Shown here: positions 23,794-40,919 of the stretch, piece after piece
Layout: every line of letters starts with the position of its first letter
Position numbering within the stretch: position 1 is the stretch's first letter
Assembly: GCA_003599175.1 (NCBI GenBank)
Contig: QZIY01000020.1
Coordinates: forward strand, 1-52,159
DNA: 52,159 bases
Origin: Candidatus Parcubacteria bacterium
GTDB lineage: Bacteria; Patescibacteriota; Minisyncoccia; Phycocordibacterales; UBA2100
Direction: 5' to 3'
The notes under the pieces: model-generated
Told to the model about the DNA's origin: nothing
Seen by the model: only the letters and a program-made list of their open reading frames with translations
Databases searched by the model: none
Made by a program: the position numbers and the translations under genes

Positions 23794-24606
23794 CTACACA
23801 TTGCCTCGCAACTTGTCGATCGAGTGCTGTGCGAGGAGGAAGTACGGGTCTTCATCTAAAAGTCGCATGGCGATGTCATACAGGTCGGCAGCGCGCACCA
23901 CCTTAATGGTGCCGTTTCCGAACGTTTTCTCGTGGAGCGCGTGCGAGGCGCGCAGGTGTGGTTCGATTTTTTGCATCTCGTTGTCTACCTCTTGCTCGAG
24001 TGGTCGTGCGAAATACGTGCACCAATCCTTTCGCGTCTCATTGCCCTCGATAATGCTGCCCGTAAACGTTTTAAGGAATCGATAGGGGACTTTGTGCATT
24101 TGTTCGACATGAATGAGAAACGTGCAGTATTCAAAATCGACGCCGAACATAACGATTTTCGCATTGAGTTTGCGAAGATTGTCGAAGACGGATCCTTTGC
24201 CAAAGGTGTCCTTGCTTATGGTGAGTACCTCGTTCGTACGCTTGCCCCATGCGGCGATAGAGTGCATTGGCTGCAAAGAGCGCTTCACGCCGGGTTGCTG
24301 CCTAAAAAATTCGGACAGTGACCCGACGGTCGATCGGCTCTTTTGAACATCGAACGCTTCGCCTTTCCCCCAGCTAAAGCTGAAGGCGGGGAAGGTGACC
24401 GTACCGTCTTCGCCAACACTTTCTTTAAACGTCTCAATGAGCGCCGACAAAAAAGTATCTTTGTTTGGCGTTGCCAACTTACCGAACACTGCGATATCGG
24501 AGTGGATAAACAGCATATCGCCTTCTGCAACGCCGACTTCGCGCAAGGCGCGTAGCAAATCACTGTCAGTGAGATCTTCCTCATCGCACGTATAGAGAAG
24601 GGTCAT
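23794..24606 (-). CDS. AAC(3)/YokD-family N-acyltransferase
   Basis: FIHSD, PAFS, GSLSEFFR, RSLQPMHS, TFLIHVEQ, VPYR. Confidence 0.88.
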   Translation of the reverse strand: MTLLYTCDEEDLTDSDLLRALREVGVAEGDMLFIHSDIAVFGKLATPNKDTFLSALIETFKESVGEDGTVTFPAFSFSWGKGEAFDVQKSRSTVGSLSEFFRQQPGVKRSLQPMHSIAAWGKRTNEVLTISKDTFGKGSVFDNLRKLNAKIVMFGVDFEYCTFLIHVEQMHKVPYRFLKTFTGSIIEGNETRKDWCTYFARPLEQEVDNEMQKIEPHLRASHALHEKTFGNGTIKVVRAADLYDIAMRLLDEDPYFLLAQHSIDKLRGNV

Positions 24607-24728
24607 ATTTTTATTAAAGAGACTACGCCCGAACGGCAGAAAACTCAAGCTGATCAGGAGCATAGTACAAAAATGTTCGCCATAATGGCGAATGGCGGGA
24701 AGGCGTGGGGCACGCTATAGTAGCACCC

Positions 24729-26477
24729 ATGCAGCTTTTTAAAACGTTGATGTCGCAGTATCGATACCACATGGCGCTCTTGATTGTGCTTGGCTTTCTC
24801 TCCGGTGTGCTTGAAGGTCTCGGAATTACCGCCATCATTCCACTTTTTTCCTATCTTTTAGGGCAAGATGTTCCGGTCGGTAATAAAATAGTAAGCACCA
24901 TCGTCGGATTGTTTGACTACTTGCCGATTGCATATAGCCCAGTATCACTTCTTCTTTTCGTCATTGTGCTCTTTATCGTGCGCGCACTCGTTATGGTCGC
25001 TTTTTTTTATCTGCGCTCGCGCGTGTCTTCGAGCTATATGGTGCGTACCATGAACGATTTATGGAACAAAGTTCTTCATGCGAAGTGGGGTTTCTTACTA
25101 CACCAGCGGCTCGGTACGATCGATGTCACCATTTCGCGCGATGTGCGCAACGGTCAGTCGCTCCTTGAAAATATCTCGCAAGCCGTGCTCGTATTCACGA
25201 ACCTTATCATTTACATTTCGCTTGCAGTCTATATATCTCCTGCCATAACGCTTGCCACCGCCGTCGCCGGGACGCTCATGCTTTTCGTGTTACGGCCAAT
25301 CCGCAAGCGGATCAAGAAAAATTCTCGCGCCTTAAGCGGTATGGAGAAAGACATGTCGCACTTCCTCAATGAACATACACTCGGTCTCAAAGCTGTAAAA
25401 TCCGCCGCTGTGGAATCCGCCGTATATCGCGCAGGCCTCACATGGTTTGACGCATTTAAGCAACTTTTGATCAAATCTGTCTTTTTTGGCGCTGTCAGTT
25501 CGGCGTTTACCCAACCAGTCGCGCTCATATTTATGACCATCGTCTTTCTCTTCTTCTACGGCAAGGGCACACTCGAGCTCGGTACGTTTATCGCGCTCAT
25601 CTATCTCATTCAAAAGATTTTCGCCTACGTGGAATCGGGACAAGTTGCGCTGCATAGCATTCAGGATCGTCTCCCGTACGCAGAGCATGCTGCAGAATTT
25701 GCTCATACATTAGCGACAGAGGCGGAGCCAGATGATGGCGCACGACGTTTCGGCTTCCAGCGTGCAATTGAGTTTTCACATGTCGGGTTTTCATACACGG
25801 GAGAGAAAAAAGTGCTCGATGATGCTTCGTTCAGTATCGTGAAAGGGTCGCTCACGGGACTCATCGGGCCTTCGGGAAGTGGTAAAACATCGATTGCTGA
25901 TCTTCTCTTGCGTCTTTTTGAGCCGACGTCTGGCATCATATCGATAGACGGAGAAGATATTCGTTCATTTGATATTTCTGATTGGCGCCGCAGCATTGGC
26001 TATGTATCGCAAGACATGTTCCTCCTTAACGATACGGTTGCGGCAAACATCCGCTTCTATAACTCCGAGATGAGTGATGAAAATGTTCGTGAAGCAGCAC
26101 GATTTGCCAATTGCACTGAATTCATAGAAAAACTACCGCAAAAGTTTGAGACCGTTATCGGCGAACGGGGGATCATGCTCTCGCTGGGACAGCGGCAGCG
26201 CATAATACTCGCGCGCGTGCTTGCGCGAAAACCGGAAATATTGATCCTCGATGAAGCGACGAGCGCGCTCGATAACGAATCGGAGCGTCTTGTGCAAGAG
26301 GCGATTGAGGGTTTGAAACAGAACATTACGATTTTCATCATCGCGCACCGGCTCTCGACCGTTAGAGGCGTCGATATGCTTCTCGTTTTGCAAAACGGCC
26401 GGCTCGAAGAGAGGGGAACACCGCAGGAGTTGCTTGCAAATCCCGATTCCTATTTTTCACGGATGTACAAAAAATAA
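24729..26477 (+). CDS. ABC exporter, fused TMD-NBD (PglK/MsbA-like glycan flippase)
   Basis: N-terminal TM helices, GPSGSGKT, LSLGQRQR, ILDEATSALD. TATAGT lies 7 nt before ATG 24729. Confidence 0.9.
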   Translation: MQLFKTLMSQYRYHMALLIVLGFLSGVLEGLGITAIIPLFSYLLGQDVPVGNKIVSTIVGLFDYLPIAYSPVSLLLFVIVLFIVRALVMVAFFYLRSRVSSSYMVRTMNDLWNKVLHAKWGFLLHQRLGTIDVTISRDVRNGQSLLENISQAVLVFTNLIIYISLAVYISPAITLATAVAGTLMLFVLRPIRKRIKKNSRALSGMEKDMSHFLNEHTLGLKAVKSAAVESAVYRAGLTWFDAFKQLLIKSVFFGAVSSAFTQPVALIFMTIVFLFFYGKGTLELGTFIALIYLIQKIFAYVESGQVALHSIQDRLPYAEHAAEFAHTLATEAEPDDGARRFGFQRAIEFSHVGFSYTGEKKVLDDASFSIVKGSLTGLIGPSGSGKTSIADLLLRLFEPTSGIISIDGEDIRSFDISDWRRSIGYVSQDMFLLNDTVAANIRFYNSEMSDENVREAARFANCTEFIEKLPQKFETVIGERGIMLSLGQRQRIILARVLARKPEILILDEATSALDNESERLVQEAIEGLKQNITIFIIAHRLSTVRGVDMLLVLQNGRLEERGTPQELLANPDSYFSRMYKK

Positions 26478-26530: not shown

Positions 26531-26857
26531 ATGGATCTTGCGATGTCACTCGGTTGGCTTGCCACGTTTCTTTTTACAATCTGCTATGTGCCGCAGATTA
26601 TCAAGACTGTGAAAACACAGTCGGTGAGCGGTCTTAGTTTTTGGCTTCTTTTTATACAATTCATCGCCAACATAGTCGCATTTTGTTATGCAACGCTCAT
26701 CGCGCAGCCCCCGCTTCAAATCAAGTATATACTCGCGCTCTTTTTTCTTCTGATATGTATGGGCGTATATATTCGTGTGTATCGAAAAAATCCACCGCAG
26801 CGACAAATCTCATCGGCAGAATCGCTTCCCGATGCACCCGATCAAGTGGCCCTCTAA
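26531..26857 (+). CDS. PQ-loop / SemiSWEET-like small transporter
   Basis: YVPQIIKT...SGLS motif with three hydrophobic helices. Confidence 0.8.
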   Translation: MDLAMSLGWLATFLFTICYVPQIIKTVKTQSVSGLSFWLLFIQFIANIVAFCYATLIAQPPLQIKYILALFFLLICMGVYIRVYRKNPPQRQISSAESLPDAPDQVAL

Positions 26858-27390
26858 ATCAGTTTCTTCGCTCGCATTTCAGTCCAGAGCTTTTCGATAC
26901 TTTTATGCACGCTTGTTTCAGCCGAAATTCTGATATCTGGTCGCTCCGGTCGCTCGTACGGGCGATTGTCGCTCATACCGATGATCTCCATCTCACCCCT
27001 TTTCCCTTTTGCGTACAATCCCTTCACGTCGCGCTCGATACAAATGGAAAGCGGTGTATCTACAAAAACTTCAATATATTGATCACCTAAAAGAGCTCTC
27101 GAGTTTGCGCGATCTTCCGCATAAGGTGAAATCGCTGAAACAAGCACGAAATCATTGTCCGCGCTTTGTTTGAGTGCAAGTTCTGCGAGAAGGCGATTAT
27201 TCTTGCGTATATCGTCGCGCGAGAATCCGAGCGGTGTTGCATGTTTTTCACGGACATCATCGCCGTCGACGAGGCTAACGATTTTACGCGACGCTTCCAG
27301 TCGCGTTTTGAGCGCGCGGGCGAGCGTGGTTTTACCTGAACCAGACAGACCAGTGAACCACAAGATCCGACTCATAGTTTTATTCGACAA
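26854..27390 (-). CDS. cysC: Adenylyl-sulfate kinase
   Basis: WFTGLSGSGKTT, DGDDVR, ISPY, RDVKGLY, YERP. Confidence 0.92.
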   Translation of the reverse strand: MSNKTMSRILWFTGLSGSGKTTLARALKTRLEASRKIVSLVDGDDVREKHATPLGFSRDDIRKNNRLLAELALKQSADNDFVLVSAISPYAEDRANSRALLGDQYIEVFVDTPLSICIERDVKGLYAKGKRGEMEIIGMSDNRPYERPERPDIRISAETSVHKSIEKLWTEMRAKKLI

Positions 27391-29638
27391 ATACTTTTTT
27401 GCCGCGCTTGATCATGTCGATGATTGCTGAGGAAATTTCCGGACGCATAAACCATGCAGGTGGTTTTTTACCTGCAAGAAGCATCGCACGTACTTGTGTG
27501 CCACTGATGTTCAGTTTTTCGCTTTCTTTGTGTCTTAATCGCTGTTCGCCTTCGTGAATATGTTTTTTTTCCTTGGACGAATAAAATACTTGATTGAAAC
27601 GCACTGGAGATATATTGAGGTCGGGAAAACGATCGAAAATTTCGTGCGCTGCTGCCGGAGGATAGAACGACCCGATACCTGTATGATCTCGTCCGACGAT
27701 AAAATGACTGCAGCCGAAATTTTGACGGCACAGAGCAGTAAAAAGTGCTTCGCGCGGACCAGCGTAGCGTGAATAACTCGCGAAGGTCCCGAGTATAGCG
27801 CGTCCTTTGGGGTAGAATTGTTCACTCATGAGTGCATACGCAGCGATGATGGCCTCGGCCTCAAAATCACCTTTTTTCTTTTTGCCAATAACAGGATGAA
27901 TAAAAAGTCCATCTGCCGAAGAACGGCGAAGCGCTTCGAGCTGAATAAATTCGTGCCCACGATGAATTGCGTTCCTCGTGTGAAATGCAACGATCCGTGA
28001 CCATCCTCGTTCTGCAAATAAGCGTCGTGTCTGCCGCGGCGTGAGCTCGTATTTTTTGGTCGGCGAATCATATCGTCTGTAGAGTGTCACCGTGCCGCCT
28101 AAAAAGACAGGCCTCATCGCCAGTACCATGGCGACACCCGGGTGTGAGGGGTCAGTTGTCCCGTACACATGCTGCGCGAAATCTTTTTTATCGTACGCAT
28201 ATTTTTCTTTCAGATGGAGCACGGCTACAACGGTTCCTTTCTTGTTTTTGAGCGCGATATCAGATCCTTCTGTAAGACGCGCCGCTTCTTCGGTACTGAC
28301 ATCAAGTACAATCGGCATCGGCCATATGGCACCGCTTGGCATCCGCATATGCTTGAGCACAGAATCCAATTCTTTGTGCGTAAGAAAACCTTCGAGCGGA
28401 CTGAAGGTGCCGATGGCGATTTGCTCAATATCCATATGCTGTTCATCGGTAATCTGTATCGATTGCAATTTCCCATCGGGGGTGAGACCAAATGCAGCTT
28501 GCCGATCCACAAGCGTGCCACCATTAGGGGGAATGAGCATCTCGCCCGGATTACTGGTATGCAGATAGTTTGCCTTGTCGAGTGTGACGACGTATCGAGG
28601 ACGTGGTCGCGCATCTTCTGGCACGCTCTCTGCTTGATGAATCAATTTATTCAGCGTGTTAACCACCTCAATCGGATAGTCGCCGATCGCTGTTTCCGCT
28701 GCAAGTGTAACGCCGAAGGCGCCATCGAGGATCGTCTGCACCGTGTCATGTACCTCGGCGCGCGTAGGACTTTGTTTATGTACCATTGACTCAAGAAAAT
28801 TCGTCGCGACGAAGACTCCCTTGTTTTTTTTGCGCGCTCGGTCGATGATGATTTTTTGCGCAAAGGGGATTTTCTCGATCGGTACCTCGCGGCTCAAATC
28901 GCCGCGGTCGATCAGAAGGTAGTCAGATTTTTCTATGATCGCATCGAGTTGCTCGAGTGCTTCTGTGCACTCGATCTTCGAAATGATTTTCATGCGGCTC
29001 TTTGTCCGCTTTCGCACGAGATCCACTGCTTCTGGCGATCGCACGAACGAAACAGCAATGTGATCGACGCCTTCTTTGAGCGCTATTGCGATCGCATCTT
29101 CGTCTTTTGGTGAGAGTGTCGGAAGTTCAAAATTTTTTTTGGATGCCGTGTCGATGACAACACCTTTGTTGGCTCCCATGATGCCACCGGATAGTACCGT
29201 TGATACCACATACCCCTTCTGTGCGAGCATCGAAGTCTCGGTCACGCGCAGGACTACAGAATTGAAATCGATATATACGAGATCACCTTCAGCCAACTGT
29301 GGTACGATGGATTCAGGTTTGAGACAGATGCGTGTACTGTTGCCCCGAATCTGCTTTTGATAAATTTTGATCCTCGCGCCTTCCTCTAAGCGGATCTCGC
29401 CTCGTTCGTTTGCCCCGTTGCGCACCTGCGACCCTTCAGTATCCAATATGAAAGGTATGCCTACGTCGCGCGCAAGTTTCATAAAATAACCCTGATCTGC
29501 AATGCTTGAGTGCGACATATTGACACGCACGAAACCGACGCCCCGGTCTTTGAGCGCACGTAGATGATCTTTGGTATGAGTCGATGGCCCCAGCGTCACC
29601 ACGATCTTGGTTTTCTTGGGAGTCGGTCTGATTTTCAT
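27380..29638 (-). CDS. Pyruvate kinase catalytic domain fused to sulfate adenylyltransferase (Sat)
   Basis: N-terminal PK motifs KTKIVVTLGP, RVNMSH, DTEG, SKIE, RGDL, PTRAE, ETAIGDYP. C-terminal Sat motifs FSPLEGF, FHTRNAIHRGHE, RYAGPREA, IVGRDH, ISGTQVR. Confidence 0.9.
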   Translation of the reverse strand: MKIRPTPKKTKIVVTLGPSTHTKDHLRALKDRGVGFVRVNMSHSSIADQGYFMKLARDVGIPFILDTEGSQVRNGANERGEIRLEEGARIKIYQKQIRGNSTRICLKPESIVPQLAEGDLVYIDFNSVVLRVTETSMLAQKGYVVSTVLSGGIMGANKGVVIDTASKKNFELPTLSPKDEDAIAIALKEGVDHIAVSFVRSPEAVDLVRKRTKSRMKIISKIECTEALEQLDAIIEKSDYLLIDRGDLSREVPIEKIPFAQKIIIDRARKKNKGVFVATNFLESMVHKQSPTRAEVHDTVQTILDGAFGVTLAAETAIGDYPIEVVNTLNKLIHQAESVPEDARPRPRYVVTLDKANYLHTSNPGEMLIPPNGGTLVDRQAAFGLTPDGKLQSIQITDEQHMDIEQIAIGTFSPLEGFLTHKELDSVLKHMRMPSGAIWPMPIVLDVSTEEAARLTEGSDIALKNKKGTVVAVLHLKEKYAYDKKDFAQHVYGTTDPSHPGVAMVLAMRPVFLGGTVTLYRRYDSPTKKYELTPRQTRRLFAERGWSRIVAFHTRNAIHRGHEFIQLEALRRSSADGLFIHPVIGKKKKGDFEAEAIIAAYALMSEQFYPKGRAILGTFASYSRYAGPREALFTALCRQNFGCSHFIVGRDHTGIGSFYPPAAAHEIFDRFPDLNISPVRFNQVFYSSKEKKHIHEGEQRLRHKESEKLNISGTQVRAMLLAGKKPPAWFMRPEISSAIIDMIKRGKKVFVE

Positions 29639-29730
29639 ACGAGATGCATGAAGGGGAGGTTTTTGTCCCGGACATCGAGGAATATACTATTATTGGAGAC
29701 ACGCGTCTACGGTATGATACAGTCCCGTGT

Positions 29731-30585
29731 ATGCGCCGCCTCATTTTTTTTCACCTTGCGAAAACGGGAGGAATCACCCTGCGACGTATCGCTGAGCGCC
29801 ACCTTCCCGAGGGTTACGCGTTCTACAATCTCTCGCTCAATCAAGCCGACAGCAAGGAGCTTGAGGAATTTCGAGCGCTACCCGAAACTAAAAAAGAGAA
29901 GATTGCCGTCCTTGCAGGCCACATGCCTTTTGGCATGGATAAAGAGTTGAGCGGGCCGTCAGATTACATCACGATGCTCCGAAACCCGCTCGACATCGTC
30001 GTATCGGAGTATTATTACCTGCACAACAGTCCGCTTAAAGATTGGCACCGCGCGATCGCGGATTTCAAGGCGATGAGTCTCGGTGATTTCGCACGGAGCG
30101 GATTCAATATAACGACGAACCATCAGACGCGCGTTCTTGCCAGAATATGGTCCACTTTTTTGGAACGATCCGTTCCCGTCGATGAAGCGGCATTTTCACG
30201 GGCGAAAGAATCCCTTCGGCGTGACTTTCTCTGCGTTGGCATCACGGAGCGTTTCGACGAGTCGCTCTTGGTCATGAAAAGGCGGCTCGGGTGGCGTAGT
30301 ATTTATTATTTTAGAGAAAACAAAACGCCGGGACGCAGGCCAACTAAAAGTATCGCACCGGGAGATCGTGATGCTATTCTTGAGCGCAATCATATTGACC
30401 TTGCACTATGGAAGTTTGCGAATGAGCTTTTGGATAAGGAAATCGAAGATTATGGGCCAAATTTTATGCGTGATTTGCGCCATTTTCAGCGGCGTAATTT
30501 TTGGTACCAGAAAGCGCGTCGTGTCGCCCTCTTGGCACGTGGTTTGATGTTCCGCCTTAAGAAACTTACGCACCTGCATGCTTGA
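29731..30585 (+). CDS. Sulfotransferase (Sulfotransfer_2-like)
   Basis: FFHLAKTGG (5'-PSB) and LRNP..VVSEY (3'-PB), plus GITERFDESL. Divergent from the sat/cysC operon. Confidence 0.85.
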   Translation: MRRLIFFHLAKTGGITLRRIAERHLPEGYAFYNLSLNQADSKELEEFRALPETKKEKIAVLAGHMPFGMDKELSGPSDYITMLRNPLDIVVSEYYYLHNSPLKDWHRAIADFKAMSLGDFARSGFNITTNHQTRVLARIWSTFLERSVPVDEAAFSRAKESLRRDFLCVGITERFDESLLVMKRRLGWRSIYYFRENKTPGRRPTKSIAPGDRDAILERNHIDLALWKFANELLDKEIEDYGPNFMRDLRHFQRRNFWYQKARRVALLARGLMFRLKKLTHLHA

Positions 30586-31303: not shown

Positions 31304-32665
31304 ATGAACATTTGCCTTTTCGGACACAGCTGGCATACGCTCACGCCTTACGAACCGCTGGTTAATCTTCTACGCGATCGTGGAATCACCTTTGAGATGC
31401 TCGTGTTGGCACCGCCCACGAGCGCATATTTTCAATCGCTCGAGGAATTTCAAAGACGTTTTCCGCAATTATCGGGATGGGAAAGAGGCGTATACTCGAC
31501 GCGCATCTTCGCGGTAATTCTCCGGATTCCTCTCATTGGTCCGCTCTTTGCCGCACTCCTGTTTCTTTTCATTGTGAGACGACGGTTTGCGCAGGCAAGA
31601 TACGATTGCATTGTCGTAAGCGGAGATCGCGGACTTTTTATCAACGTTATCTTGATCCGCGCCGCGAAGGCCGCAGGTGTCCCGGTTCTTTTGTACCCAC
31701 AAGAAGCATTTCAATCACATGATATGGACGCAAAGATTAAATCTGGAGCCGTCGCTCGTGCGACTGTGATGCGCACATTCGTGCGTCGTCTCACAACTGC
31801 GCTCTATAGTGCGAATTTCTCTCTCGTTGAGGGAGCGCCTTCATACAACTACGTGCCGAGCTATCTTTTGCCATTTGCGCTGTGGAATCGTATTGATACG
31901 CTCTTGCCGATTGATCCCTTCGTCCGCGGGACCAACCCAAACCTCTCAGCGGTGGCGGTCAATTCATCGGATCAAGGCGAAGAAATCAGACGAACACTCG
32001 GAGAGAACAACCGCTTTTTTGTAACTGGTTTCCCGGCATTTGATGCGGTAATGAAGCAACTTCGGATGCGCGATCAGACCCGGACCGATCTTCTGCACAT
32101 TCGCCCCAATCAGCGCGTGCTTCTTATCATTGGCACGCACCTGACCGAAAATTATGCTCCCCATGAATTTCCCGCCGCGTATCAGGAGATCGCTCGTATC
32201 TTTCGCCTACTGGTTGACGAATTACCGTCGGACGTGCTCATTGTGTACAAAAAACACCCACATCGCGAGATTCTCCAAGATATTCTCGCAATCGATCCAG
32301 CGTTGTCTGAGCGGATGCGCATTATTGGACGCGAGGCAGATACGTATCAGCTTGTTGGAGCCGCCGATGCAATCTTTATGTTTGCTTCCTCGGTTATTGG
32401 GTCTGCCATCGCAACAGATGCTCGCATCTGGCTCTATCATCTACCCAACCTGCGCGGGTTCGATGAATTTTATCACCCTTATCATTCACCGCCGCGACTC
32501 AACACTCGTGACGAACTACACAAGGTTTTGCCGCACTTTTTTGATCCACTATCGGAGGAGGAGAAAAAAGGGCGTGATATTGATCGTAGACATAACGGCA
32601 TTTATGATGGTCGCAATACCGAACGCATCTACGAGGCGATCTGTACAGTTGCTCGCACGTCATGA
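31304..32665 (+). CDS. Putative GT-B fold transferase (CDP-glycerol phosphotransferase/capsule-synthesis-like)
   Basis: VTGFPAFD, KKHPHRE, FASSV, DGRNTERI. Confidence 0.55.
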   Translation: MNICLFGHSWHTLTPYEPLVNLLRDRGITFEMLVLAPPTSAYFQSLEEFQRRFPQLSGWERGVYSTRIFAVILRIPLIGPLFAALLFLFIVRRRFAQARYDCIVVSGDRGLFINVILIRAAKAAGVPVLLYPQEAFQSHDMDAKIKSGAVARATVMRTFVRRLTTALYSANFSLVEGAPSYNYVPSYLLPFALWNRIDTLLPIDPFVRGTNPNLSAVAVNSSDQGEEIRRTLGENNRFFVTGFPAFDAVMKQLRMRDQTRTDLLHIRPNQRVLLIIGTHLTENYAPHEFPAAYQEIARIFRLLVDELPSDVLIVYKKHPHREILQDILAIDPALSERMRIIGREADTYQLVGAADAIFMFASSVIGSAIATDARIWLYHLPNLRGFDEFYHPYHSPPRLNTRDELHKVLPHFFDPLSEEEKKGRDIDRRHNGIYDGRNTERIYEAICTVARTS

Positions 32666-34032
32666 AAACCATCCTTTTCAATATTGACGAAGGCACCATG
32701 TCATACGCGCTTCTGCGCACGGGTTTTTTGAAGCGGATGGAGCGGGAGTCAACGATACGGCTCGTCGCGGTCGTACCTTCAAACAAGCTTGATTATTATC
32801 GCGAATCGTTCCGCACGATTCGCAATATCGAATTCACGACCGTGCCGTCGAATAGCTATCAAACAGTTGAAATTTTTTGGGACAATCTGTTTCGTCAAAA
32901 CATTCCAACGCGCACCAAGTCAAATCACCAGTGGCACTCATTTTATACGAACGGGAGTCTGATCTTTCGAAGCGTTCGACTCGTGGGAGTACGAACTTTG
33001 TGGCTCCTGGGACATCTATCGCTCTGGCGGCGTTTCTTGCGCTTTCTCTACGGTTTTACGCCGCATCGCGCATTTGACGCGGTGTTCGACAAGTACAAAC
33101 CGGATCTCCTTTTTGCCACTACCATGTACAGCATGAGAGACCTTGGCCTTATGAAAGCGGCTCGTGCGCATGGCGTCGCGATCGTCGGCATGGTCAAAAC
33201 ATGGGATAGTATTACGACGAAGTTTTTCATGCCGATCGCACCCGATTACATGATCGCCCATAATGAAATCATCAAGTCAGAAGCGGTGAAGTATCTTGAT
33301 TTTCCGGCCAGCAAAATTTTCGTGAGCGGTATTCCGCGGTTCGATTTTTATTTCAATGCAGACATCATACGGCGGCGCGCAGATTTTCTCGCGCAGCTCG
33401 GCTTACAATCCGATGACAAATATATCCTTTTCGCGGGAGACGCGCTGCATCAATATCCGGATCAATGCGAATTCATTGATTTTCTGGATCACACTATTAC
33501 AAAGGATCATTTTTTTGATGGATATACCATTCTGTACCGGCCGCATCCGCATTACGGCAAATGCGAAGGTGGCAGGGCGCGCTGGAAACGTGTCAAAGAG
33601 CAGCAACCCGCGACACGGGTAACAGAGGGGAGAGCTGCATGGGAGTTTGAAGAAAGCGACATCGCACTCATCAACAACACCATCTATCATGCCGCGGCTA
33701 TCTTGATGTTTGCCTCTACGATTGGTATCGAGACGGCACTCTATGATCGGCCCACGATTGGCGTTGCTTTTGATATGACGCCCGAACCAAACTATTATCT
33801 TTCCAATCGCCGCTACTATGACAGCGATCATTATCAAATACTCGACAAAAGCGGTGGCATTCCGCGCGCGCAGAGTCGCGAAGAAGTGATTGCGCTCCTC
33901 AAGGAAGCGATCGCGGAACCACACAAATACGCGGCGGGTAGAAAGCTGATCGTCGACAAAATGCTCGGATTCACCGACGGTCATTCCGCGGAGCGCATCG
34001 CACAGTTTCTCATTGACAAACTGAATCAGTAA
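32662..34032 (+). CDS. Putative GT-B fold transferase (CDP-glycerol phosphotransferase-like)
   Basis: TWDSITTK, SGIPRFD, YRPHP, ASTIGIE, DGHSAERI. Confidence 0.6.
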   Translation: MKTILFNIDEGTMSYALLRTGFLKRMERESTIRLVAVVPSNKLDYYRESFRTIRNIEFTTVPSNSYQTVEIFWDNLFRQNIPTRTKSNHQWHSFYTNGSLIFRSVRLVGVRTLWLLGHLSLWRRFLRFLYGFTPHRAFDAVFDKYKPDLLFATTMYSMRDLGLMKAARAHGVAIVGMVKTWDSITTKFFMPIAPDYMIAHNEIIKSEAVKYLDFPASKIFVSGIPRFDFYFNADIIRRRADFLAQLGLQSDDKYILFAGDALHQYPDQCEFIDFLDHTITKDHFFDGYTILYRPHPHYGKCEGGRARWKRVKEQQPATRVTEGRAAWEFEESDIALINNTIYHAAAILMFASTIGIETALYDRPTIGVAFDMTPEPNYYLSNRRYYDSDHYQILDKSGGIPRAQSREEVIALLKEAIAEPHKYAAGRKLIVDKMLGFTDGHSAERIAQFLIDKLNQ

Positions 34033-34033: not shown

Positions 34034-35005
34034 ATGCTCACGATCGTCATGTACCATTATGTGCGCGACATTGCAGGGTCACCGTATCCAGGTATTAGAG
34101 GGCGTACGCTCGGGGAATTCGACGGCCAACTTGAATATCTTTCTCGACATTACGTGCATGTGAGCTTGCAAGATGTGATGGATGCGGCAGGAGGAAGAAT
34201 GACGCTACCCGAGAACGCTTATCACCTGACATTTGATGACGGCCTTTCGGATCACTATCGGAACGTATTTCCGCGCCTTCGCGAGCGCGGCATTCCCGCA
34301 TCCTTCTATCCGCCCACCCAAAGCGCACTTAATTCAGTGGTCCTCGAAGTGCACAAAATCCAATTTTTACTTTCAGTCATCACCGATTATGGCGCGCTTG
34401 CGAATGAAATTTTTTCCATGGCTGCTGCTTACCGTTCAGAGTATGAATTTCCCTCTGAAGCAGGACTCCGTGCTCAGTTTGTCAACATCAGGAGTCGCTT
34501 TGATCCGCCCGAAGTCGTGTTGGTCAAGCGGCTGCTACAGACCGGTTTGCCCGGTCCAGTTCGCACTGGAGTCATCGGAGAGCTCTTCGCGCTTCATGTC
34601 ACAACCGATGAAGCTGCGTTTGCGCACGAACTCTATATGACAATGGAGGATATGCGGGAGATGTACAAGTCGGGCATGGAATTTGGAGGACATGGATATC
34701 GGCACGCACGAATGCATGGTATGAAACTCGACGAGCAGGAATTCGAGATCAAAAAAAGTCGGGAATTGATGCGTATGTTGCACGGCAGGGAGCAGCCGTG
34801 GGTGATGAACTACCCGTTTGGCAGTTACGACGAGGAAACAGTGCGGCTCGCGCAAAAATACCACGCGATTCTCGGACTCACGACCAAGGCAGAGCTGGTG
34901 CACGGTTTCGATCGTCCGCTCGAGCTTGAACGGCTCGATACGAATGACTTGCCGCTCTCCGGCGATGCGCCGATTTCAAGATGGACGGCGCAGGTGTTGG
35001 TGTGA
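34034..35005 (+). CDS. Polysaccharide deacetylase
   Basis: MYHYVR, LTFDDG, GGHGYRH, YPFG. Confidence 0.88.
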   Translation: MLTIVMYHYVRDIAGSPYPGIRGRTLGEFDGQLEYLSRHYVHVSLQDVMDAAGGRMTLPENAYHLTFDDGLSDHYRNVFPRLRERGIPASFYPPTQSALNSVVLEVHKIQFLLSVITDYGALANEIFSMAAAYRSEYEFPSEAGLRAQFVNIRSRFDPPEVVLVKRLLQTGLPGPVRTGVIGELFALHVTTDEAAFAHELYMTMEDMREMYKSGMEFGGHGYRHARMHGMKLDEQEFEIKKSRELMRMLHGREQPWVMNYPFGSYDEETVRLAQKYHAILGLTTKAELVHGFDRPLELERLDTNDLPLSGDAPISRWTAQVLV

Positions 35006-35017
35006 AATACTGATTAT

Positions 35018-35719
35018 ATGAACATCATTGCGCTCATCCTCGCCCGCGGCGGCAGCAAGCGGTTTCCGGGGAAAAATCTATACCCGCTGCTCGGAAAGCC
35101 CCTGATTGCACATTCTATCATCGCTGCGAAAGCGACGACGAAGATCGATCGGGTGATCGTCTCGACCGACAGCGAGGAAATTGCCGCGGTGGCGCGGGAA
35201 TATACCGCGGAAGTCCCATTCATGCGCCCCTCGGAACTTGCGAGCGATTCCGCAAAGGCGATTGACGTCGTGCGTCACATCATCGGGATGCTCGAACAAG
35301 ACGGTTATAAGGCCGGTTACGTTGTCACATTACAGCCAACAACACCCGTAATCGAACCGGCGCAGATCGATGCGGCGATCGAGCTTGCGATCGAGAAAAA
35401 TGCAGAGTCTGTCGTGAACGTATCGGAAATAGATACCATCAATCACCCGTACAACATCCGCGAAATTCGAGAGGATGGCACCGCGCATTTCTGGCAAGAA
35501 AAATTGCATTACGAGGCGCTCGGCAAAGATAGACCGAAGTTTTATCACGCTGCCAATCTGTGGCTATCGAGTTACGACACGGTGATGAAAGAGGGGAAAT
35601 TTGAAGGAGAAAAAAATTATCCCATCATCGTGCCGCCGATTTATTCGAGCGATATCGATTTTAAGGAAGATCTGGAACGACTTGAAGCCATCCTTTCCAG
35701 CTGGAAGAAAAACGGCTAG
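35018..35719 (+). CDS. neuA: Acylneuraminate cytidylyltransferase (CMP-nonulosonate synthetase)
   Basis: ARGGSKRFPGKN, VSTDS, RPSELASD, LQPTTP, DIDF. Confidence 0.92.
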   Translation: MNIIALILARGGSKRFPGKNLYPLLGKPLIAHSIIAAKATTKIDRVIVSTDSEEIAAVAREYTAEVPFMRPSELASDSAKAIDVVRHIIGMLEQDGYKAGYVVTLQPTTPVIEPAQIDAAIELAIEKNAESVVNVSEIDTINHPYNIREIREDGTAHFWQEKLHYEALGKDRPKFYHAANLWLSSYDTVMKEGKFEGEKNYPIIVPPIYSSDIDFKEDLERLEAILSSWKKNG

Positions 35720-35729
35720 TATCCAGACA

Positions 35730-36878
35730 ATGGCAGATAAGCGGACGATTGCGGTACTCACGGGGAAGCGCGGCGGATTCGGCGCGATGATTACGATGGT
35801 CGAAGCGCTGAAACGTGATCCAAAAATCAGCGTTGAGCCGATTACTACCGACATGCACCTGAACCCTTTTTTTGGTGATACGGTCAAGGAAGTTGAGAGA
35901 TCATATGGCCCGACCCATCGCGTACCGACCGATCAAAAAGACGACACGAGTGAAGAGCGAGCACAGACACTTGCGCGCACCATGGCGGGCATGGTCGATA
36001 TACTCTCGAAAATTAAACCTGATGTTTTGGTGACGTTGGGGGATCGCGGCGAAGTTTTGGCGGCAGCAAACGCCGCGCTCGAACTCAATATTCCAGTCGC
36101 CCACATCCTTGGAGGCGATACTGCAGGAAACCGAGATGGCGTACGTATCCATGCCATCACCAAACTTGCGCATTTGCATTTTCCAGCCAACAAAGACGCA
36201 TACAAACGCATCTTGAAATTAGGCGAAGAGAAATGGCGCGTCTTCGACTTTGGCTCTACCTATATCGATCTTGCGGTGCAGAAAAAGTTTACGCCGAATA
36301 CAGAAGTGCGGCGGAAGTACAACATCAAACCAGATGAGCCGTACCTTCTCTGCATTCAGCATCCGACGACGCTCGACGAAACCCGCTCATATGACGAAGC
36401 AAAGACGGTATACGAGGGGCTGAAGCGCACGGGTATGCGTACGATCATTGTCTGGCCATGCAGTGATCAAGGGTATTCACTCGTCCTCAAGGCACTCGAT
36501 GAGTATAAAAATGTGCCGCAATTCAGTATTCACAAAAATATCGAAGTACAGGATTTTTGGGGACTCATGGATGGTGCCTCTGCGATGGTAGGGAATTCTT
36601 CGAGCGGTCTCATGGAAACACCATACTTCAATCTGCCGTCCGTAACGGTCGGACACCGGCAAGACGGTCGAGCGCGAGACACCAATGGTATTGTGGTAGC
36701 TGAGCCGACGCCTGAAAAGGTCGAGAAGGCCGTTCTGAGAGCGATCTCACCCGCATTTAAGAAAAAGGTAAAAAATCATTTCGTCTTTGGCAAAGGAAAT
36801 GCGGGAGAGAAGATTGCTCATGTTCTCAAAACTATTCCACTGGGTGAAAAATTACTTCGCAAAAAAATAACGTTCTAA
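35730..36878 (+). CDS. neuC: UDP-N-acetylglucosamine 2-epimerase (hydrolysing)
   Basis: LGDRGE, HAITKLAHLHF, GNSSSG, GHRQDGR. Confidence 0.9.
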   Translation: MADKRTIAVLTGKRGGFGAMITMVEALKRDPKISVEPITTDMHLNPFFGDTVKEVERSYGPTHRVPTDQKDDTSEERAQTLARTMAGMVDILSKIKPDVLVTLGDRGEVLAAANAALELNIPVAHILGGDTAGNRDGVRIHAITKLAHLHFPANKDAYKRILKLGEEKWRVFDFGSTYIDLAVQKKFTPNTEVRRKYNIKPDEPYLLCIQHPTTLDETRSYDEAKTVYEGLKRTGMRTIIVWPCSDQGYSLVLKALDEYKNVPQFSIHKNIEVQDFWGLMDGASAMVGNSSSGLMETPYFNLPSVTVGHRQDGRARDTNGIVVAEPTPEKVEKAVLRAISPAFKKKVKNHFVFGKGNAGEKIAHVLKTIPLGEKLLRKKITF

Positions 36879-36883
36879 AGATT

Positions 36884-37810: not shown

Positions 37811-37818
37811 CAAAGAGA

Positions 37819-37845: not shown

Positions 37846-37864
37846 ATGAAATGAACTGATTTTG

Positions 37865-39038: not shown

Positions 39039-39719
39039 ATGACCCCTGACGAAAAAGCAGACATCTCACGTGCACTCATCAAACTCACGCTCGAACGATA
39101 CCCGCGCGTATTCCTCGCATGCTCTTTCGGCAAAGACTCTCGCGTCTTGGTGGATCTTGCGACCTCGGTGAAGCCCGATGTCGAGATTTGCGGCATCGAT
39201 ACAGGATACGAATTCAAAGAGACGCTGGAATTTGCCAATGAACTCATCGAAAAGCGCAACCTCAATTTCAAATGGCTTCGCCCCACGCCCGAAGATGTGA
39301 AGCGTATCGATGAATACTATGGCGACAGCTTCATCAAAGACGATCAGTACAAATGCTGCGAGATGAAAATTCCAGCGATCAATAATGTCATCGGCGGATA
39401 CGATGCGTGGATCACAGGTCTCCGACGCGATGAGACGGAATTCCGCAAAAACACGGGCCTTATTGAGCAGGGCAAGATCGTGAAGGTGAATCCCATTGCA
39501 TTTTGGAATCACGATGATATCTGGACCTACATCAAAGACCACAAGCTTGAATATCACCCACTCTACGACAAAGGTTATCCGTCACTCGGCTGCGAGCCGT
39601 GCACAAAGGAGGGGAAGAACCAGAGTGGGGGCGGGCGACAGGGTAAATTCGAGCGCGCGGGCCGCTTCACTGGTACCGGCAATCAGGGACAAGAGTGCGG
39701 TTTGCATACCATGGTCTAA
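39039..39719 (+). CDS. cysH: APS/PAPS reductase with [4Fe-4S] cysteine motif
   Basis: SFGKDS, IDTGY, CC..K, WITGLRRD, YPSLGCEPCT, ECGLH. Confidence 0.92.
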   Translation: MTPDEKADISRALIKLTLERYPRVFLACSFGKDSRVLVDLATSVKPDVEICGIDTGYEFKETLEFANELIEKRNLNFKWLRPTPEDVKRIDEYYGDSFIKDDQYKCCEMKIPAINNVIGGYDAWITGLRRDETEFRKNTGLIEQGKIVKVNPIAFWNHDDIWTYIKDHKLEYHPLYDKGYPSLGCEPCTKEGKNQSGGGRQGKFERAGRFTGTGNQGQECGLHTMV

Positions 39720-39737
39720 AGCGGTAGTGTTCAGACC

Positions 39738-40919
39738 ATGGCAATAAAAAGTAAGAAGCTCCGTGTGCTCGTTTTGGGCGGTGATGGCTATCTGGGCTGG
39801 CCGACGGCGATGTATTTTTCCAATCGAGGTCACGAGGTCGCGGTTGTCGACAATTTCAATAAGCGAAAGTGGGAAGCGGAAGTTGATGCGGAGCCATTGA
39901 TGCCCATCCCATCACTTCAGGAGCGCATCCGTATCTGGAAGAAAACAACCGGCAAGAAAATCAAAATGTATGTCGGCGATCTCTGTCATGAGCGTTTTGT
40001 CGCGCGCGTGTTCGATGAGTTCAAGCCCGACACGATCATTCACTTTGGTGAGCAACCCTCAGCACCTTTCTCAATGATCGGCAACGAACGAGCAGTGGAG
40101 ACGCAGGTCAACAATGTTGTCGGCAATTTGAATGTAATCTTTGCGATGAAGCGCTCGACACCGAATGCACATCTTGTGAAGCTCGGCACGATGGGCGAAT
40201 ATGGCACGCCGAATATTGATATCGAAGAAGGATGGCTCGACATTACTCACAAGGGGCGCAGAGATCGTCTTCTCTTTCCCAAAAAGCCGGGGTCCTTCTA
40301 TCATCTCTCGAAAGTCCATGACAGCCACAATCTCGAATTTGCATGCCGCACGTGGGATCTTGCGGTGACCGATCTCAATCAGGGTGTCGTATATGGCATT
40401 GAGACGGAAGAGACAAAGATGGCGCCTGGTCTTCACACCTCATTCCACTACGATGATATTTTCGGTACCGCACTCAACCGCTTTTGTGTACAGGCGGTCG
40501 CTGGCTTGCCGATCACGCCGTATGGCAAAGGTGGACAGAAACGCGGGTTTCTCAACATCGTCGATACGCTCCGCTGCGTCGAGCTCGCAGCGCTCCACCC
40601 GGCGAAAAAGGGCGAGTTTCGCGTCTTCAACCAATTCACTGAAGTTTTTAGCGTCAACGAACTTGCAGAAACGGTGAAAGAGGCGGCGAAGAAAATGAAC
40701 ATCAAGGCGACAGTCAAGCACATCAAAAACCCGCGCAAGGAGCAGGAAGAGCACTACTACAAGCCGGTGCACACCGGCTTGCCTAAGCTCGGTCTCAAAC
40801 CGCACCTCCTCTCCGACGTCTTGGTCGAGAGCATGATCGCCAAAATCATTGAGCACAAAGATCACATTGAGGAAGAAATCATCATGCCGCGCGTGGTGTG
40901 GGAGAAAAAGAAGAACTAA
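39738..40919 (+). CDS. sqdB: UDP-sulfoquinovose synthase
   Basis: GGDGYLGWPTA, EQPSAPFS, KLGTMGEYGTP, PGSFYHLSK, DLNQGVVYG, GTALNRFC, VFNQFTE. Confidence 0.92.
   Translation: MAIKSKKLRVLVLGGDGYLGWPTAMYFSNRGHEVAVVDNFNKRKWEAEVDAEPLMPIPSLQERIRIWKKTTGKKIKMYVGDLCHERFVARVFDEFKPDTIIHFGEQPSAPFSMIGNERAVETQVNNVVGNLNVIFAMKRSTPNAHLVKLGTMGEYGTPNIDIEEGWLDITHKGRRDRLLFPKKPGSFYHLSKVHDSHNLEFACRTWDLAVTDLNQGVVYGIETEETKMAPGLHTSFHYDDIFGTALNRFCVQAVAGLPITPYGKGGQKRGFLNIVDTLRCVELAALHPAKKGEFRVFNQFTEVFSVNELAETVKEAAKKMNIKATVKHIKNPRKEQEEHYYKPVHTGLPKLGLKPHLLSDVLVESMIAKIIEHKDHIEEEIIMPRVVWEKKKN

What the first reader, a model, noticed from the sequence alone, without database searches (positions are those of the whole stretch)
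27380..29638. Pyruvate kinase::ATP sulfurylase fusion
Seen: one uninterrupted 752-aa ORF. Residues ~8-340 are a pyruvate kinase A/B domain with the catalytic motifs (RxNxSH, DTxG, KIE, RGDL, TRAE, ETAxGxYP) but no regulatory C domain. A ~30-aa linker follows, then a full Sat domain starting at an internal Met367 (nt 28540), possibly the ancestral start. Known: the Sat reaction is thermodynamically unfavourable and consumes ATP, and the adjacent CysC releases ADP. Inference: the fusion locally regenerates ATP from PEP to drive APS/PAPS synthesis in a fermentative cell, free of allosteric control. Alternatively the PK domain has a new substrate.
Basis: partly seen in the sequence, partly recalled or inferred. 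Interest (0 to 1): 0.8.

Follow-up and report, generated by a model that had tools for sequence, protein, structure and literature searches.

The report
Pyruvate kinase fused to ATP sulfurylase
One gene really does join a pyruvate kinase core to the enzyme that activates sulfate; it belongs to a widespread enzyme family for which I found no paper, and it probably uses phosphoenolpyruvate to keep the sulfate donor PAPS flowing into sulfated cell-surface sugars.

Summary
A 752-aa ORF lies on the minus strand at 27380-29638. It has a pyruvate kinase A/B barrel without the C domain, a linker, then PUA_2 and ATP sulfurylase. CysC overlaps its stop codon.

It is not a one-off. All 119 other best database clusters share the architecture and 18 also carry CysC. 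It occurs in Patescibacteria, DPANN archaea, Chloroflexota and other phyla. This scan has reported the family at least ten times on other DNA. Five literature searches found no description.

- All PK catalytic residues are invariant in 56 of 56 fusions.
- The Sat half carries a paired switch at both sulfate contacts, QTRN to HTRN and GRDHAG to GRDHTG. This switch tracks the PK association.
- Models dock the PK lid (B domain) on Sat: pTM 0.90, and split-chain score 0.70 against a best control of 0.02.
- Met367 is not a conserved relic start (4 of 56).
- In this genome the fusion holds the only PK found, and PAPS has two sinks: a sulfotransferase and CysH plus SQD1 (UDP-sulfoquinovose).

The best reading is PEP-driven ADP-to-ATP recycling for PAPS synthesis. 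It is inferred, not shown.

The parts
27380..29638 (-). PK-Sat fusion gene, 752 aa (P0001)
   Evidence: ORF list and translation. Pfam finds PK, PUA_2 and ATP-sulfurylase.
28604..29638 (-). Pyruvate kinase A/B module, residues 1-345, with no C domain
   Evidence: PF00224 at residues 8-326, 232 bits. It aligns to PDB 2e28, 5wrp and 8eq3 over residues 8-338. Catalytic positions R38, N40, S42, H43, D66, R73, K221, E223, D247 and E295 are invariant in 56 of 56 fusions; T292 is kept in 91%.
29132..29419 (-). PK B (lid) domain, about residues 74-169. This is the predicted docking surface for the Sat module.
   Evidence: In the split-chain model the PK interface residues are 85-87, 117-134, 149-151, 163-169 and 253. 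Family-specific switches lie here: F125, D/N126, D163 and the insertion 166-168.
28541..28621 (-). Linker, residues 340-366. The first half is variable; a semi-conserved L353-E-x-x-N-Y358-L359-L stretch follows.
   Evidence: Column counts in 56 fusions. AF2 predicts a helix at 348-355.
27383..28540 (-). Sat-type ATP sulfurylase module (PUA_2 plus catalytic domain), residues 367-752
   Evidence: Pfam. NF003166 429.3 against 387, and TIGR00339 347.9 against 322.95. PDB 8a8d at E 1e-97 over residues 367-739.
27980..27982 (-). His553 codon: HTRN in place of the canonical QXRN sulfate-binding motif
   Evidence: H in 56 of 56 fusions and in 119 of 119 fusion-length database hits. Q in 10 of 10 unfused Sats of the phylum sample.
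27680..27682 (-). Thr653 codon: GRDHTG in place of GRDHAG
   Evidence: T in 55 of 56 fusions. It covaries with H553 in the database hits.
26854..27390 (-). APS kinase CysC, 178 aa, overlapping the fusion's end by 11 nt
   Evidence: PF01583 149 bits. TIGR00455 159.7 against 138.7.
29681..29709 (-). Promoter-like site upstream of the fusion gene (weak evidence)
   Evidence: Consensus scan with 9 of 12 matches. The number of such sites in the region is no higher than in shuffles.
29644..30585 (+). Divergent sulfotransferase (Gal-3-O-sulfotransferase-like). The real start is probably Met30 at 29731.
   Evidence: PF06990 40.9 bits starting at residue 30. Sequence read. Homologues in L016, L032, L070 and L077 align from residue 30-33 onward.
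39039..39719 (+). CysH, phosphoadenylyl-sulfate reductase: a second sink for PAPS
   Evidence: PF01507 149 bits. NF002537 190 against 154.
39738..40919 (+). SQD1-type UDP-sulfoquinovose synthase, which would use the sulfite made by CysH
   Evidence: PDB 1i24/1qrr SQD1 at E 9e-151 over residues 9-390. NF041015 480.7, which is below its cut-off of 575.

Best explanation
The gene encodes a two-module enzyme of a single-origin family. An active pyruvate kinase barrel, lacking the allosteric C domain, is joined to a Sat-type ATP sulfurylase, with its mobile lid packed against Sat.

Proposed mechanism:
- Sat makes APS from ATP and sulfate.
- The translationally coupled CysC turns APS into PAPS and releases ADP.
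- The PK module re-phosphorylates that ADP with PEP on the spot.
- The net reaction is ATP + PEP + sulfate -> PAPS + PPi + pyruvate.
- ADP, which traps APS kinase in a dead-end complex, does not build up.

In this cell PAPS would feed the divergent sulfotransferase. Through CysH and SQD1 it would also feed UDP-sulfoquinovose, both for a surface glycan.

Shown: the architecture, conservation of the catalytic residues, the gene context and the modelled interface. Inferred: every activity and the coupling between them.
For: Architecture and competence:
- The domain architecture is clear.
- PK catalytic positions are invariant in 56 of 56 fusions and align with solved PKs.
- In Sat the HXXH motif, R555, N556 and the GRD loop are invariant.

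Gene order and neighbours:
- The order is always PK-Sat-(CysC). Of the 66 loci, CysC is fused in 20 and lies within two genes in 19.
- 18 of the 119 database clusters are triple fusions.
- Of 20 genomes without a neighbouring CysC, 13 have a strong CysC elsewhere.
- Among 149 downstream ORFs: Sulfotransfer_1 in 14, Sulfotransfer_3 in 12, CysQ-like Inositol_P in 8. Among 138 upstream ORFs: Sulfotransfer_1 in 10 and Sulfotransfer_3 in 10. Many glycan genes appear on both sides.

The PK module is dedicated rather than housekeeping where genomes are large:
- All 8 fusion genomes of 2.5 Mb or more also keep a canonical PK scoring 325-400 bits, against 190-250 bits for the fusion PKs.
- The fusion PK domains form one clade, 56 of 56, on a long stem.

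Physical coupling:
- AF2 gives pLDDT 92.2 and pTM 0.90.
- The split-chain model scores 0.70 against a best control of 0.02. That mark was reached by 58 of 80 solved complexes and 2 of 110 mismatched pairs. The runs agree in at least 86% of contacts, and the partner pLDDT is at least 89.
- The modelled interface holds family-specific switches.

Biochemical rationale: PK/PEP was needed for PAPS synthesis by human PAPSS1 in vitro (PMC9885120, passages read).
Against: - No activity was measured.
- PK is fused to Sat, not to CysC, which is the enzyme that makes ADP.
- 20 of the 66 loci have no CysC nearby, and 7 of those 20 genomes show none or only weak P-loop matches. All 7 are 0.6-1.4 Mb MAGs of unknown completeness.
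- The family PK carries invariant private residues beside the active site (D244, Q71, S70). These could mean altered substrates or altered cation dependence.
- Both sulfate contacts of Sat are changed, so even 'sulfate' is an inference from context.
- In this genome the fusion is the only PK found and no PPDK or PpsA was found (genome 88% complete). Housekeeping use is therefore not excluded.
- The interface is only modelled, and enrichment of family switches on the Sat side is weak: 15 of 25 interface positions against 163 of 348 elsewhere.
Confidence: 0.6

Rival explanations
1. The PK module is mainly the cell's ordinary glycolytic pyruvate kinase. The fusion to Sat serves only co-expression or oligomerisation, with Sat replacing the lost C domain as an assembly scaffold. 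There is no special link to PAPS synthesis.
For: - In this genome the fusion is the only PF00224 match. Enolase is present and no PEP-utilizers_C was found.
- 21 of the 28 fusion genomes under 2 Mb show no second PK-like gene. By contrast, roughly two thirds of the 401 phylum genomes have a PK match (276 of 401 match either half, nearly all of them the PK half).
- The PK active site is intact.
Against: - All 8 larger fusion genomes keep a canonical PK as well.
- The fusion PKs are a separate, divergent clade that is always joined to one special Sat type.
- The fusion always sits in sulfation contexts.
- The two roles are not mutually exclusive.
- The MAGs are incomplete, the genomes are related to one another, and the set mixes bacteria and archaea.
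Confidence: 0.15
2. The PK-like barrel has changed its job. It would use PEP on an acceptor other than free ADP, for example a bound adenylate of the sulfurylase reaction. Or it acts as a PEP- or nucleotide-sensing gate on a sulfurylase whose anion pocket has been remodelled. Either way, activation would be driven or controlled by new chemistry.
For: - Invariant private residues sit next to the catalytic ones: D244 (A in 97% of canonical PKs) and Q71 (E, K or R in canonical PKs).
- There is a paired switch at both sulfate contacts, Q to H and A to T. It occurs in all PK-associated Sats and in none of the 10 unfused Sats of the phylum sample. The roles of these two positions come from PMC6607087 (passages read).
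- The PK lid is modelled as clamped to the helix that leads into the HTRN strand.
- Some carriers show no CysC.
- Earlier notes of this scan describe a PK-barrel::nucleotidyltransferase fusion that also sits beside Sat (not tested here).
Against: - Every residue known to bind PEP, metal and nucleotide phosphate is kept.
- CysC is fused or adjacent in 39 of the 66 loci and is found elsewhere in 13 more genomes.
- Ordinary PK chemistry explains the data.
Confidence: 0.2
3. The fusion is an assembly or frameshift artefact that joins two separate genes.
For: A rare split form does exist elsewhere: in L109 a PK ORF ends 16 nt before the Sat ORF. Reads for this window could not be checked.
Against: The single uninterrupted frame recurs in 119 protein clusters from many sources, in 56 genome loci and in 75 of 80 metagenome loci. 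The linker also holds a semi-conserved motif.
Confidence: 0.01

Closest known systems
Bifunctional and trifunctional PAPS synthases: the Aquifex aeolicus Sat/CysC enzyme (PDB 2gks, NCBIfam NF004040) and metazoan PAPSS1/2
   Same: Enzymes of one pathway are fused in a single chain that contains a Sat-type sulfurylase. The domain order Sat-CysC matches the triple-fusion relatives. The product would be PAPS for sulfotransferases.
   Different: Here the extra module is a pyruvate kinase barrel at the N-terminus, which none of those enzymes has. In this window CysC is a separate gene. NF004040 scores 291.5 against a cut-off of 669. The sulfate pocket is H/T-type rather than Q/A-type.
Homo-oligomeric Sat-type ATP sulfurylase: Methanothermococcus thermolithotrophicus (8a8d), Thermus thermophilus (1v47), yeast (1g8h)
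   Same: The full PUA_2 plus catalytic domain is present, with E 1e-97 to 8a8d. HXXH, R, N and the GRD loop are kept.
   Different: QXRN reads HTRN and GRDHAG reads GRDHTG, so both sulfate contacts are changed. A PK module is fused at the N-terminus.
Pyruvate kinase (EC 2.7.1.40): G. stearothermophilus 2e28, M. tuberculosis 5wrp, E. coli PykF
   Same: The A/B barrel and all catalytic residues are shared.
   Different: There is no C (effector and tetramer) domain. TIGR01064 scores 285.9, below its cut-off of 306.4. Private invariant residues are present: D244, Q71, F125, D163 and an insertion at 166-168. The lid is modelled as docked on another enzyme.
The laboratory PK/PEP ATP-regeneration system used for enzymatic PAPS synthesis (PMC9885120)
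   Same: The same three activities (sulfurylase, APS kinase, pyruvate kinase) work together. The stated purpose is removal of ADP, which traps APS kinase.
   Different: That is an artificial mixture of separate enzymes. Here the combination is encoded naturally, with PK covalently joined to Sat.

Membership tests
Pyruvate kinase (PF00224 / TIGR01064) | A/B barrel domain above the Pfam cut-off | tested here: met
   232 bits against 30, residues 8-326
Pyruvate kinase (PF00224 / TIGR01064) | Catalytic and metal- or phosphate-binding residues. The functional roles are recalled from the PK literature; the aligned positions come from the calls. | tested here: met
   R38, N40, S42, H43, D66, R73, K158, K221, E223, D247 and E295 are kept here and in 56 of 56 fusions; T292 is kept here and in 91% of them
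Pyruvate kinase (PF00224 / TIGR01064) | C-terminal alpha/beta (effector) domain and a full-length equivalog score | tested here: not met
   No PK_C match was listed. TIGR01064 scores 285.9, below 306.4, and matches only profile positions 1-340 of 476.
Pyruvate kinase (PF00224 / TIGR01064) | PEP + ADP -> pyruvate + ATP activity | not testable with these tools
   Needs an enzyme assay
Sat-type ATP sulfurylase (PF14306 + PF01747, TIGR00339, NF003166) | PUA_2 plus catalytic domain above the curated cut-offs | tested here: met
   TIGR00339 347.9 against 322.95, and NF003166 429.3 against 387
Sat-type ATP sulfurylase (PF14306 + PF01747, TIGR00339, NF003166) | HXXH motif and GRD loop | tested here: met
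   H559, H562 and G649-R-D-H652 are invariant in 56 of 56. The motif list is from PMC6607087.
Sat-type ATP sulfurylase (PF14306 + PF01747, TIGR00339, NF003166) | QXRN sulfate-binding motif and the Ala of VGRDHAG | tested here: not met
   HTRN and GRDHTG stand in their place. R and N are kept, but Q is H (56 of 56) and A is T (55 of 56).
Bifunctional Sat/CysC PAPS synthase (NF004040) | Sat and APS kinase in one chain | tested here: not met
   In this window CysC is a separate, overlapping gene. NF004040 scores 291.5 against 669. 18 of 119 relatives do have CysC fused.
PK-Sat fusion family (unnamed; H/T-type Sat) | PK A/B barrel directly upstream of, and in frame with, a Sat that carries HTRN and GRDHTG | tested here: met
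   P0001 is 53-69% identical over 98% or more of its length to 119 clusters with the same three Pfam domains. It has the H/T signature and falls in the fusion PK clade.

The most novel reading that the evidence does not exclude
The family is not just three enzymes tethered together. It would be a mechanically coupled, PEP-powered sulfate activator. The PK lid, which must open and close for catalysis, is clamped to the Sat helix that leads into the active-site strand. The Sat sulfate pocket has been rebuilt in step with this (Q to H, A to T). ATP made from PEP would then be handed over or gated directly at the sulfurylase site. That would give kinetics or anion handling that no separate PK plus Sat pair has.
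Probability: 0.2. Interest if true: 0.8.

Novelty: new variant of a known kind. Interest (0 to 1): 0.6.

Why it matters
PAPS synthesis is costly, thermodynamically uphill and inhibited by its own by-products. A natural enzyme that carries its own PEP-driven ATP regeneration would show how tiny fermentative cells (CPR bacteria and DPANN archaea) and some large-genome bacteria afford sulfated surface glycans. It would also hand biocatalysis a ready-made one-chain version of the PK/PEP-assisted PAPS systems now assembled by hand.

The H/T signature gives a simple sequence marker for this Sat subtype. At present these proteins are annotated only as 'sulfate adenylyltransferase' or 'pyruvate kinase', and those labels can distort metabolic reconstructions. 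In this genome a pipeline would count a glycolytic PK or a sulfate-assimilation step without seeing that the two are one protein.

In this window the module also supplies a CysH-SQD1 pair. That points to sulfoquinovose synthesis in a Patescibacteria genome, for which two literature searches found nothing relevant.

Tried and rejected
- Reads across the linker: the look-up of sequencing runs listed no run, so none was listed and read laying was not used. No RNA holder was listed either.
- Met367 as a relic start: rejected, 4 of 56.
- 'PK replaces APS kinase': largely rejected. 13 of the 20 genomes without a neighbouring CysC have a strong CysC elsewhere. It is left open for 7 small MAGs.
- 'Standalone' H/T-type Sats from the short-protein search: I followed them into metagenome contigs. 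There they proved to be PK-fused (75 of 80), cut at a contig end (4) or a split pair (1, L109). I found no truly PK-free H/T Sat.
- Overall conservation of the modelled interface: the PK side is only slightly more conserved than the rest of the lid (top-residue frequency 0.59 against 0.54). On the Sat side the enrichment of switches is weak (15 of 25 against 163 of 348). Only individual switches support the interface.
- Literature: searches found no paper on this fusion. I judged this from listings of titles and abstract starts, plus passages of PMC12361377 and PMC9885120. Searches found nothing on sulfoquinovose in CPR or Patescibacteria. Supplements were not seen. The library lacks most subscription journals.
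- Own-genome searches found no family-I pyrophosphatase, no SulP sulfate permease and no NIR_SIR sulfite reductase. The genome is 88% complete, so these are 'not found', not 'absent'.
Full report
WHAT IS THERE

The window holds one uninterrupted 752-aa ORF on the minus strand, 27380..29638, with an ATG start. The plus-strand reading of the same stretch is full of stops.

Pfam finds three domains:
- a pyruvate kinase barrel at residues 8-326 (232 bits),
- PUA_2 at residues 388-521,
- ATP-sulfurylase at residues 529-740.

NCBIfam places the C-terminal half above the curated cut-offs for sulfate adenylyltransferase: NF003166 429.3 against 387, and TIGR00339 347.9 against 322.95. The N-terminal half matches only the first 340 of 476 positions of the PK equivalog, at 285.9 against 306.4, so the C domain is missing.

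The gene downstream, 26854..27390 (-), overlaps the fusion by 11 nt and is CysC. The divergent gene is a Gal-3-O-sulfotransferase-like protein. Its listed start at 29644 lies only 5 nt from the fusion's ATG. However, the Pfam match and the homologues both begin at about residue 30, where a Met is followed by an F-F-H-L-A-K-T-G-G stretch (29731). The intergenic gap is therefore probably 92 nt. A weak promoter-like site lies there, but sites of that kind are no more frequent in this region than in shuffles.

IS IT A ONE-OFF OR AN ARTEFACT?

It is neither.
- In the large protein collection, all 119 other best clusters (53-69% identity over at least 98% of the query) carry the same three Pfam domains. 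18 of them add APS kinase and one adds an N-terminal nucleotidyltransferase. Where sources name them, the names are only 'sulfate adenylyltransferase' or 'pyruvate kinase'.
- A scan of one genome per species found 323 relative-encoding stretches. Among the 80 kept, 65 (L015-L079) cover both halves or are cut by a contig end. Their record titles name many Patescibacteria lineages, Woese-, Nano-, Pace- and Nanohalo-archaeota, Chloroflexota (one on a 10.4-Mb contig), Gemmatimonadota, Acidimicrobiia, Omnitrophota, Neomarinimicrobiota and others.
- Within the window's own phylum the fusion is rare. In a sample of 401 genomes only this genome and G098 have a full-length match.
- This scan has already reported the same family on other DNA at least ten times, with the same general reading.
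- Five literature searches found no paper on it, judged from listings and two sets of passages.
- Reads could not be checked because no run was listed.

THE PK HALF

The PK half aligns over residues 8-338 with solved PKs 2e28, 5wrp and 8eq3.

I aligned 56 full-length fusions with 28 canonical PKs. Fourteen of the canonical PKs come from fusion-bearing genomes. A twenty-ninth row, L081, proved to be a partial fusion and slightly lowers the 'canonical' percentages. Every catalytic position is invariant in 56 of 56 fusions: R38, N40, S42, H43, D66, G69, R73, K221, E223, R245-G-D247 and E295. T292 is kept in 91% and R293 in 93%. K158 is also invariant. The functional roles of these residues are recalled from the PK literature.

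The family also has private invariant residues:
- D244 directly before the RGD (A in 97% of canonical PKs),
- S70-Q71 in D-T-E-G-S-Q-(I/V)-R (canonical PKs have P, then E, K or R),
- F125 (D in 79% of canonical PKs),
- D163 (P in all 28 canonical PKs),
- a three-residue insertion at 166-168.

Fusion PK domains score 190-250 bits on PF00224, against 325-400 bits for canonical PKs in the same genomes. In a FastTree tree all 56 form one clade with no canonical PK inside, on a stem of 0.92 substitutions per site with support 0.73. This fits a single origin followed by transfer between bacteria and archaea.

THE SAT HALF

The best solved relative is the M. thermolithotrophicus ATP sulfurylase 8a8d, at E 1e-97 over residues 367-739. 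HXXH, R555, N556 and G-R-D-H are invariant.

The canonical QXRN, however, reads HTRN in 56 of 56 fusions, and GRDHAG reads GRDHTG in 55 of 56. According to PMC6607087 (passages read), yeast Gln195 hydrogen-bonds the sulfate of APS and the backbone NH of Ala293 contacts a sulfate oxygen. Both changed positions are therefore sulfate contacts.

The two changes covary:
- Of the 119 fusion-length database hits, 117 are H/T and 2 are H/A.
- Of 120 shorter hits, 51 are H/T, 67 are Q/A and 2 could not be read.
- All 10 unfused Sats in the phylum sample are Q/A.

I followed the apparently standalone H/T Sats into metagenome contigs using alignment A3. All 80 loci returned are H-type (79 H/T, 1 H/A). 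In 75 the PK is in the same ORF. Four are cut at the contig start. One, L109, which is 85% identical to P0138, is a split pair in which the PK ORF ends 16 nt before the Sat ORF. In everything I examined, this Sat subtype comes with a PK barrel.

LINKER AND MET367

Residues 340-352 are variable and gappy. A semi-conserved L353-E-x-x-N-Y358-L359-L follows (Y in 45 of 56), and the invariant P371-H/N-G-G opens Sat. A Met at position 367 occurs in only 4 of 56 members, so it is not a relic start.

MODELLED ARCHITECTURE

AF2 with 100 family sequences gives pLDDT 92.2 and pTM 0.90, with a helix at 348-355 in the linker. A pTM that high for a two-module chain implies a confident relative placement of the modules.

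I then folded the two modules as separate chains, Sat 367-752 and PK 1-345.
- The model supports binding with a score of 0.70, against a best control of 0.02.
- That mark was reached by 58 of 80 solved complexes and 2 of 110 mismatched pairs. These counts hold only roughly, because my own alignment was used.
- The runs agree in at least 86% of contacts, and the partner pLDDT is at least 89.
- I know of no solved PK-Sat complex. The PDB sequence search found no chain covering both halves. The pass is therefore unlikely to come from memory of a solved structure.

The PK side of the interface is the B (lid) domain: residues 85-87, 117-134, 149-151 and 163-169. The Sat side is 378-383, 522, 528-544 and 602-615. 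This includes the helix at 534-543 that leads into the strand carrying HTRN.

Several family-specific switches lie in this interface. On the PK side they are F125, D/N126, H/Y122, D163 and the insertion 166-168. On the Sat side they are Q536 (100% in H/T-type, E in 100% of Q/A-type), E531 and R539. Residues 536 and 163 are a predicted contact pair.

In fairness, overall conservation of the interface is only slightly raised (0.59 against 0.54 on the PK side). The Sat-side enrichment of switches is weak: 15 of 25 interface positions against 163 of 348 elsewhere.

CONTEXT ACROSS GENOMES

I examined 66 loci, L004 plus L015-L079, using my own crude ORF caller and phmmer.
- The order is always PK-Sat-(CysC).
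- CysC is fused in 20 loci and lies within the next two genes in 19.
- It is not nearby, although there is room for it, in 20.
- Five loci are cut by contig ends and two are partial (with L055 and L058 reassigned by eye).
- Of the 20 genomes without a neighbouring CysC, 13 have a strong CysC elsewhere. Seven, all 0.6-1.4 Mb, show none or only weak P-loop matches.

The commonest neighbour families are as follows:
- Among 149 downstream ORFs: Sulfotransfer_1 (14), Sulfotransfer_3 (12), Inositol_P, which is CysQ-like (8), glycosyltransferases and PQ-loop/MtN3 (7).
- Among 138 upstream ORFs: the two sulfotransferase families (10 each), methyltransferases, GT2 and sugar-nucleotide enzymes.

CONTEXT IN THIS WINDOW AND GENOME

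The genome is 0.92 Mb in 40 contigs and 88% complete.
- The fusion is its only PF00224 match.
- Enolase is present, and no PEP-utilizers_C domain (PPDK or PpsA) was found.
- A CysQ-like gene lies on another contig.
- No family-I pyrophosphatase, SulP permease or NIR_SIR sulfite reductase was found.

Around the fusion lie TagF-like glycerophosphotransferases, a polysaccharide deacetylase, a CMP-sugar cytidylyltransferase, a UDP-GlcNAc 2-epimerase and NeuB. This is a surface-glycan island with a sialic-acid-like sugar.

About ten kilobases away sit CysH (39039-39719; NF002537 190 against 154) and, directly after it, an SQD1-type UDP-sulfoquinovose synthase (39738-40919). The latter matches plant SQD1 structures 1i24/1qrr at E 9e-151, although NF041015 scores 480.7, below its cut-off of 575. 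With no sulfite reductase found, the sulfite from CysH most likely goes to SQD1. PAPS therefore has two sinks here: sulfate esters and a sulfonated sugar.

HOW IT MOST LIKELY WORKS

The most economical reading is a PAPS-making unit with built-in ATP regeneration. Sat forms APS. CysC forms PAPS and ADP. The PK module converts ADP back to ATP with PEP. The net reaction is ATP + PEP + sulfate -> PAPS + PPi + pyruvate.

The published rationale is direct. [quoted passage not shown]

All of this is inferred here. What is shown is the intact active sites, the fixed gene order, the sulfation context and a modelled interface. PK cannot shift the Sat equilibrium itself; the pull acts through CysC and the local ATP/ADP ratio.

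RIVALS

(a) Housekeeping PK. 21 of the 28 fusion genomes under 2 Mb show no second PK-like gene (I count G416's odd 485-aa frame as a second PK). By contrast, roughly two thirds of the phylum sample have a PK. This suggests the fusion can stand in for the glycolytic enzyme, and this genome fits that picture. But all 8 larger carriers keep a canonical PK as well, so the fusion PK is a dedicated extra copy there. The two roles can coexist. Caveats are that the MAGs are incomplete, the genomes are related to each other, and bacteria and archaea are mixed.

(b) Changed chemistry or gating. The private invariant residues at the PK active site, the rebuilt sulfate pocket, the clamped lid and the carriers without CysC all leave room for this.

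(c) Artefact. This is effectively excluded.

COMPARISON AND NOVELTY

The closest known systems are the bifunctional Sat/CysC enzymes (2gks, PAPSS1/2), plain Sat (8a8d) and plain PK. None of them has a PK module joined to Sat, and none has the H/T pocket.

I file the gene as a member of the unnamed PK-Sat family. Relative to published knowledge, that family is a new variant of the PAPS-synthase theme. The gene is not a full member of 'pyruvate kinase', because it lacks the C domain and scores below the equivalog cut-off. It also fails the strict QXRN criterion of ATP sulfurylases.

Noticed in passing
window 39039-40919 (+): CysH (PAPS reductase) is directly followed by an SQD1-type UDP-sulfoquinovose synthase (E 9e-151 to plant SQD1). 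They lie inside a glycan island of a 0.92-Mb Patescibacteria genome in which no sulfite reductase was found. This suggests a sulfoquinovose-containing surface glycan or lipid. Two literature searches found nothing on this in CPR or Patescibacteria.
   Followed up: partly
window 34034-43451 (+): A set of genes for a sialic-acid-like (nonulosonic acid) sugar lies next to the sulfation genes: NeuB (40956-41978), a CMP-sugar cytidylyltransferase (35018-35719), a UDP-GlcNAc 2-epimerase (35601-36878) and a polysaccharide deacetylase (34034-35005). Two TagF-like glycerophosphotransferases are at 31304-34032.
   Followed up: partly
window 23794-24663 (-) and 24705-26477 (+): An aminoglycoside 3-N-acetyltransferase-family protein (PF02522, 136 bits) sits beside an ABC exporter (transmembrane plus ATPase domains) at the edge of the glycan island. 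In this context it is more likely a sugar or amine acetyltransferase than a resistance gene.
   Followed up: no
L032:12099-13793, L169:2332-4035, L175:2284-3885: In some Chloroflexota-type loci the gene next to the PK-Sat fusion is a roughly 530-570-aa protein with a Sat-like N-terminal part fused to CysC. That Sat-like part lacks the QXRN/HTRN and GRDH motifs, so it appears to be an APS kinase carrying a degenerate sulfurylase domain.
   Followed up: no
downstream neighbours of the fusion in L015-L079 (alignment A1): PQ-loop/MtN3-type small membrane proteins occur among the three genes downstream of the fusion in 7 of the 149 ORFs scanned. Their substrate (a sugar, or sulfate or PAPS?) is unknown.
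   Followed up: no
L109:3-1541: A split form of the family: a PK ORF ends 16 nt before an H/T-type Sat ORF, followed by CysC. The Sat is 85% identical to a 383-aa protein annotated as a standalone Sat in a Diapherotrites archaeon (P0138).
   Followed up: partly
P0011 (1019 aa): One relative carries an extra N-terminal nucleotidyltransferase domain (PF00483/PF12804) ahead of PK-Sat. Earlier notes of this scan describe PK-barrel::nucleotidyltransferase fusions beside Sat.
   Followed up: no
G416:C17:3893-4609: A 485-aa frame in one fusion-bearing genome matches the PK profile only at positions 4-74 and 171-328. It looks like a PK whose lid (B) domain is missing or very divergent.
   Followed up: no
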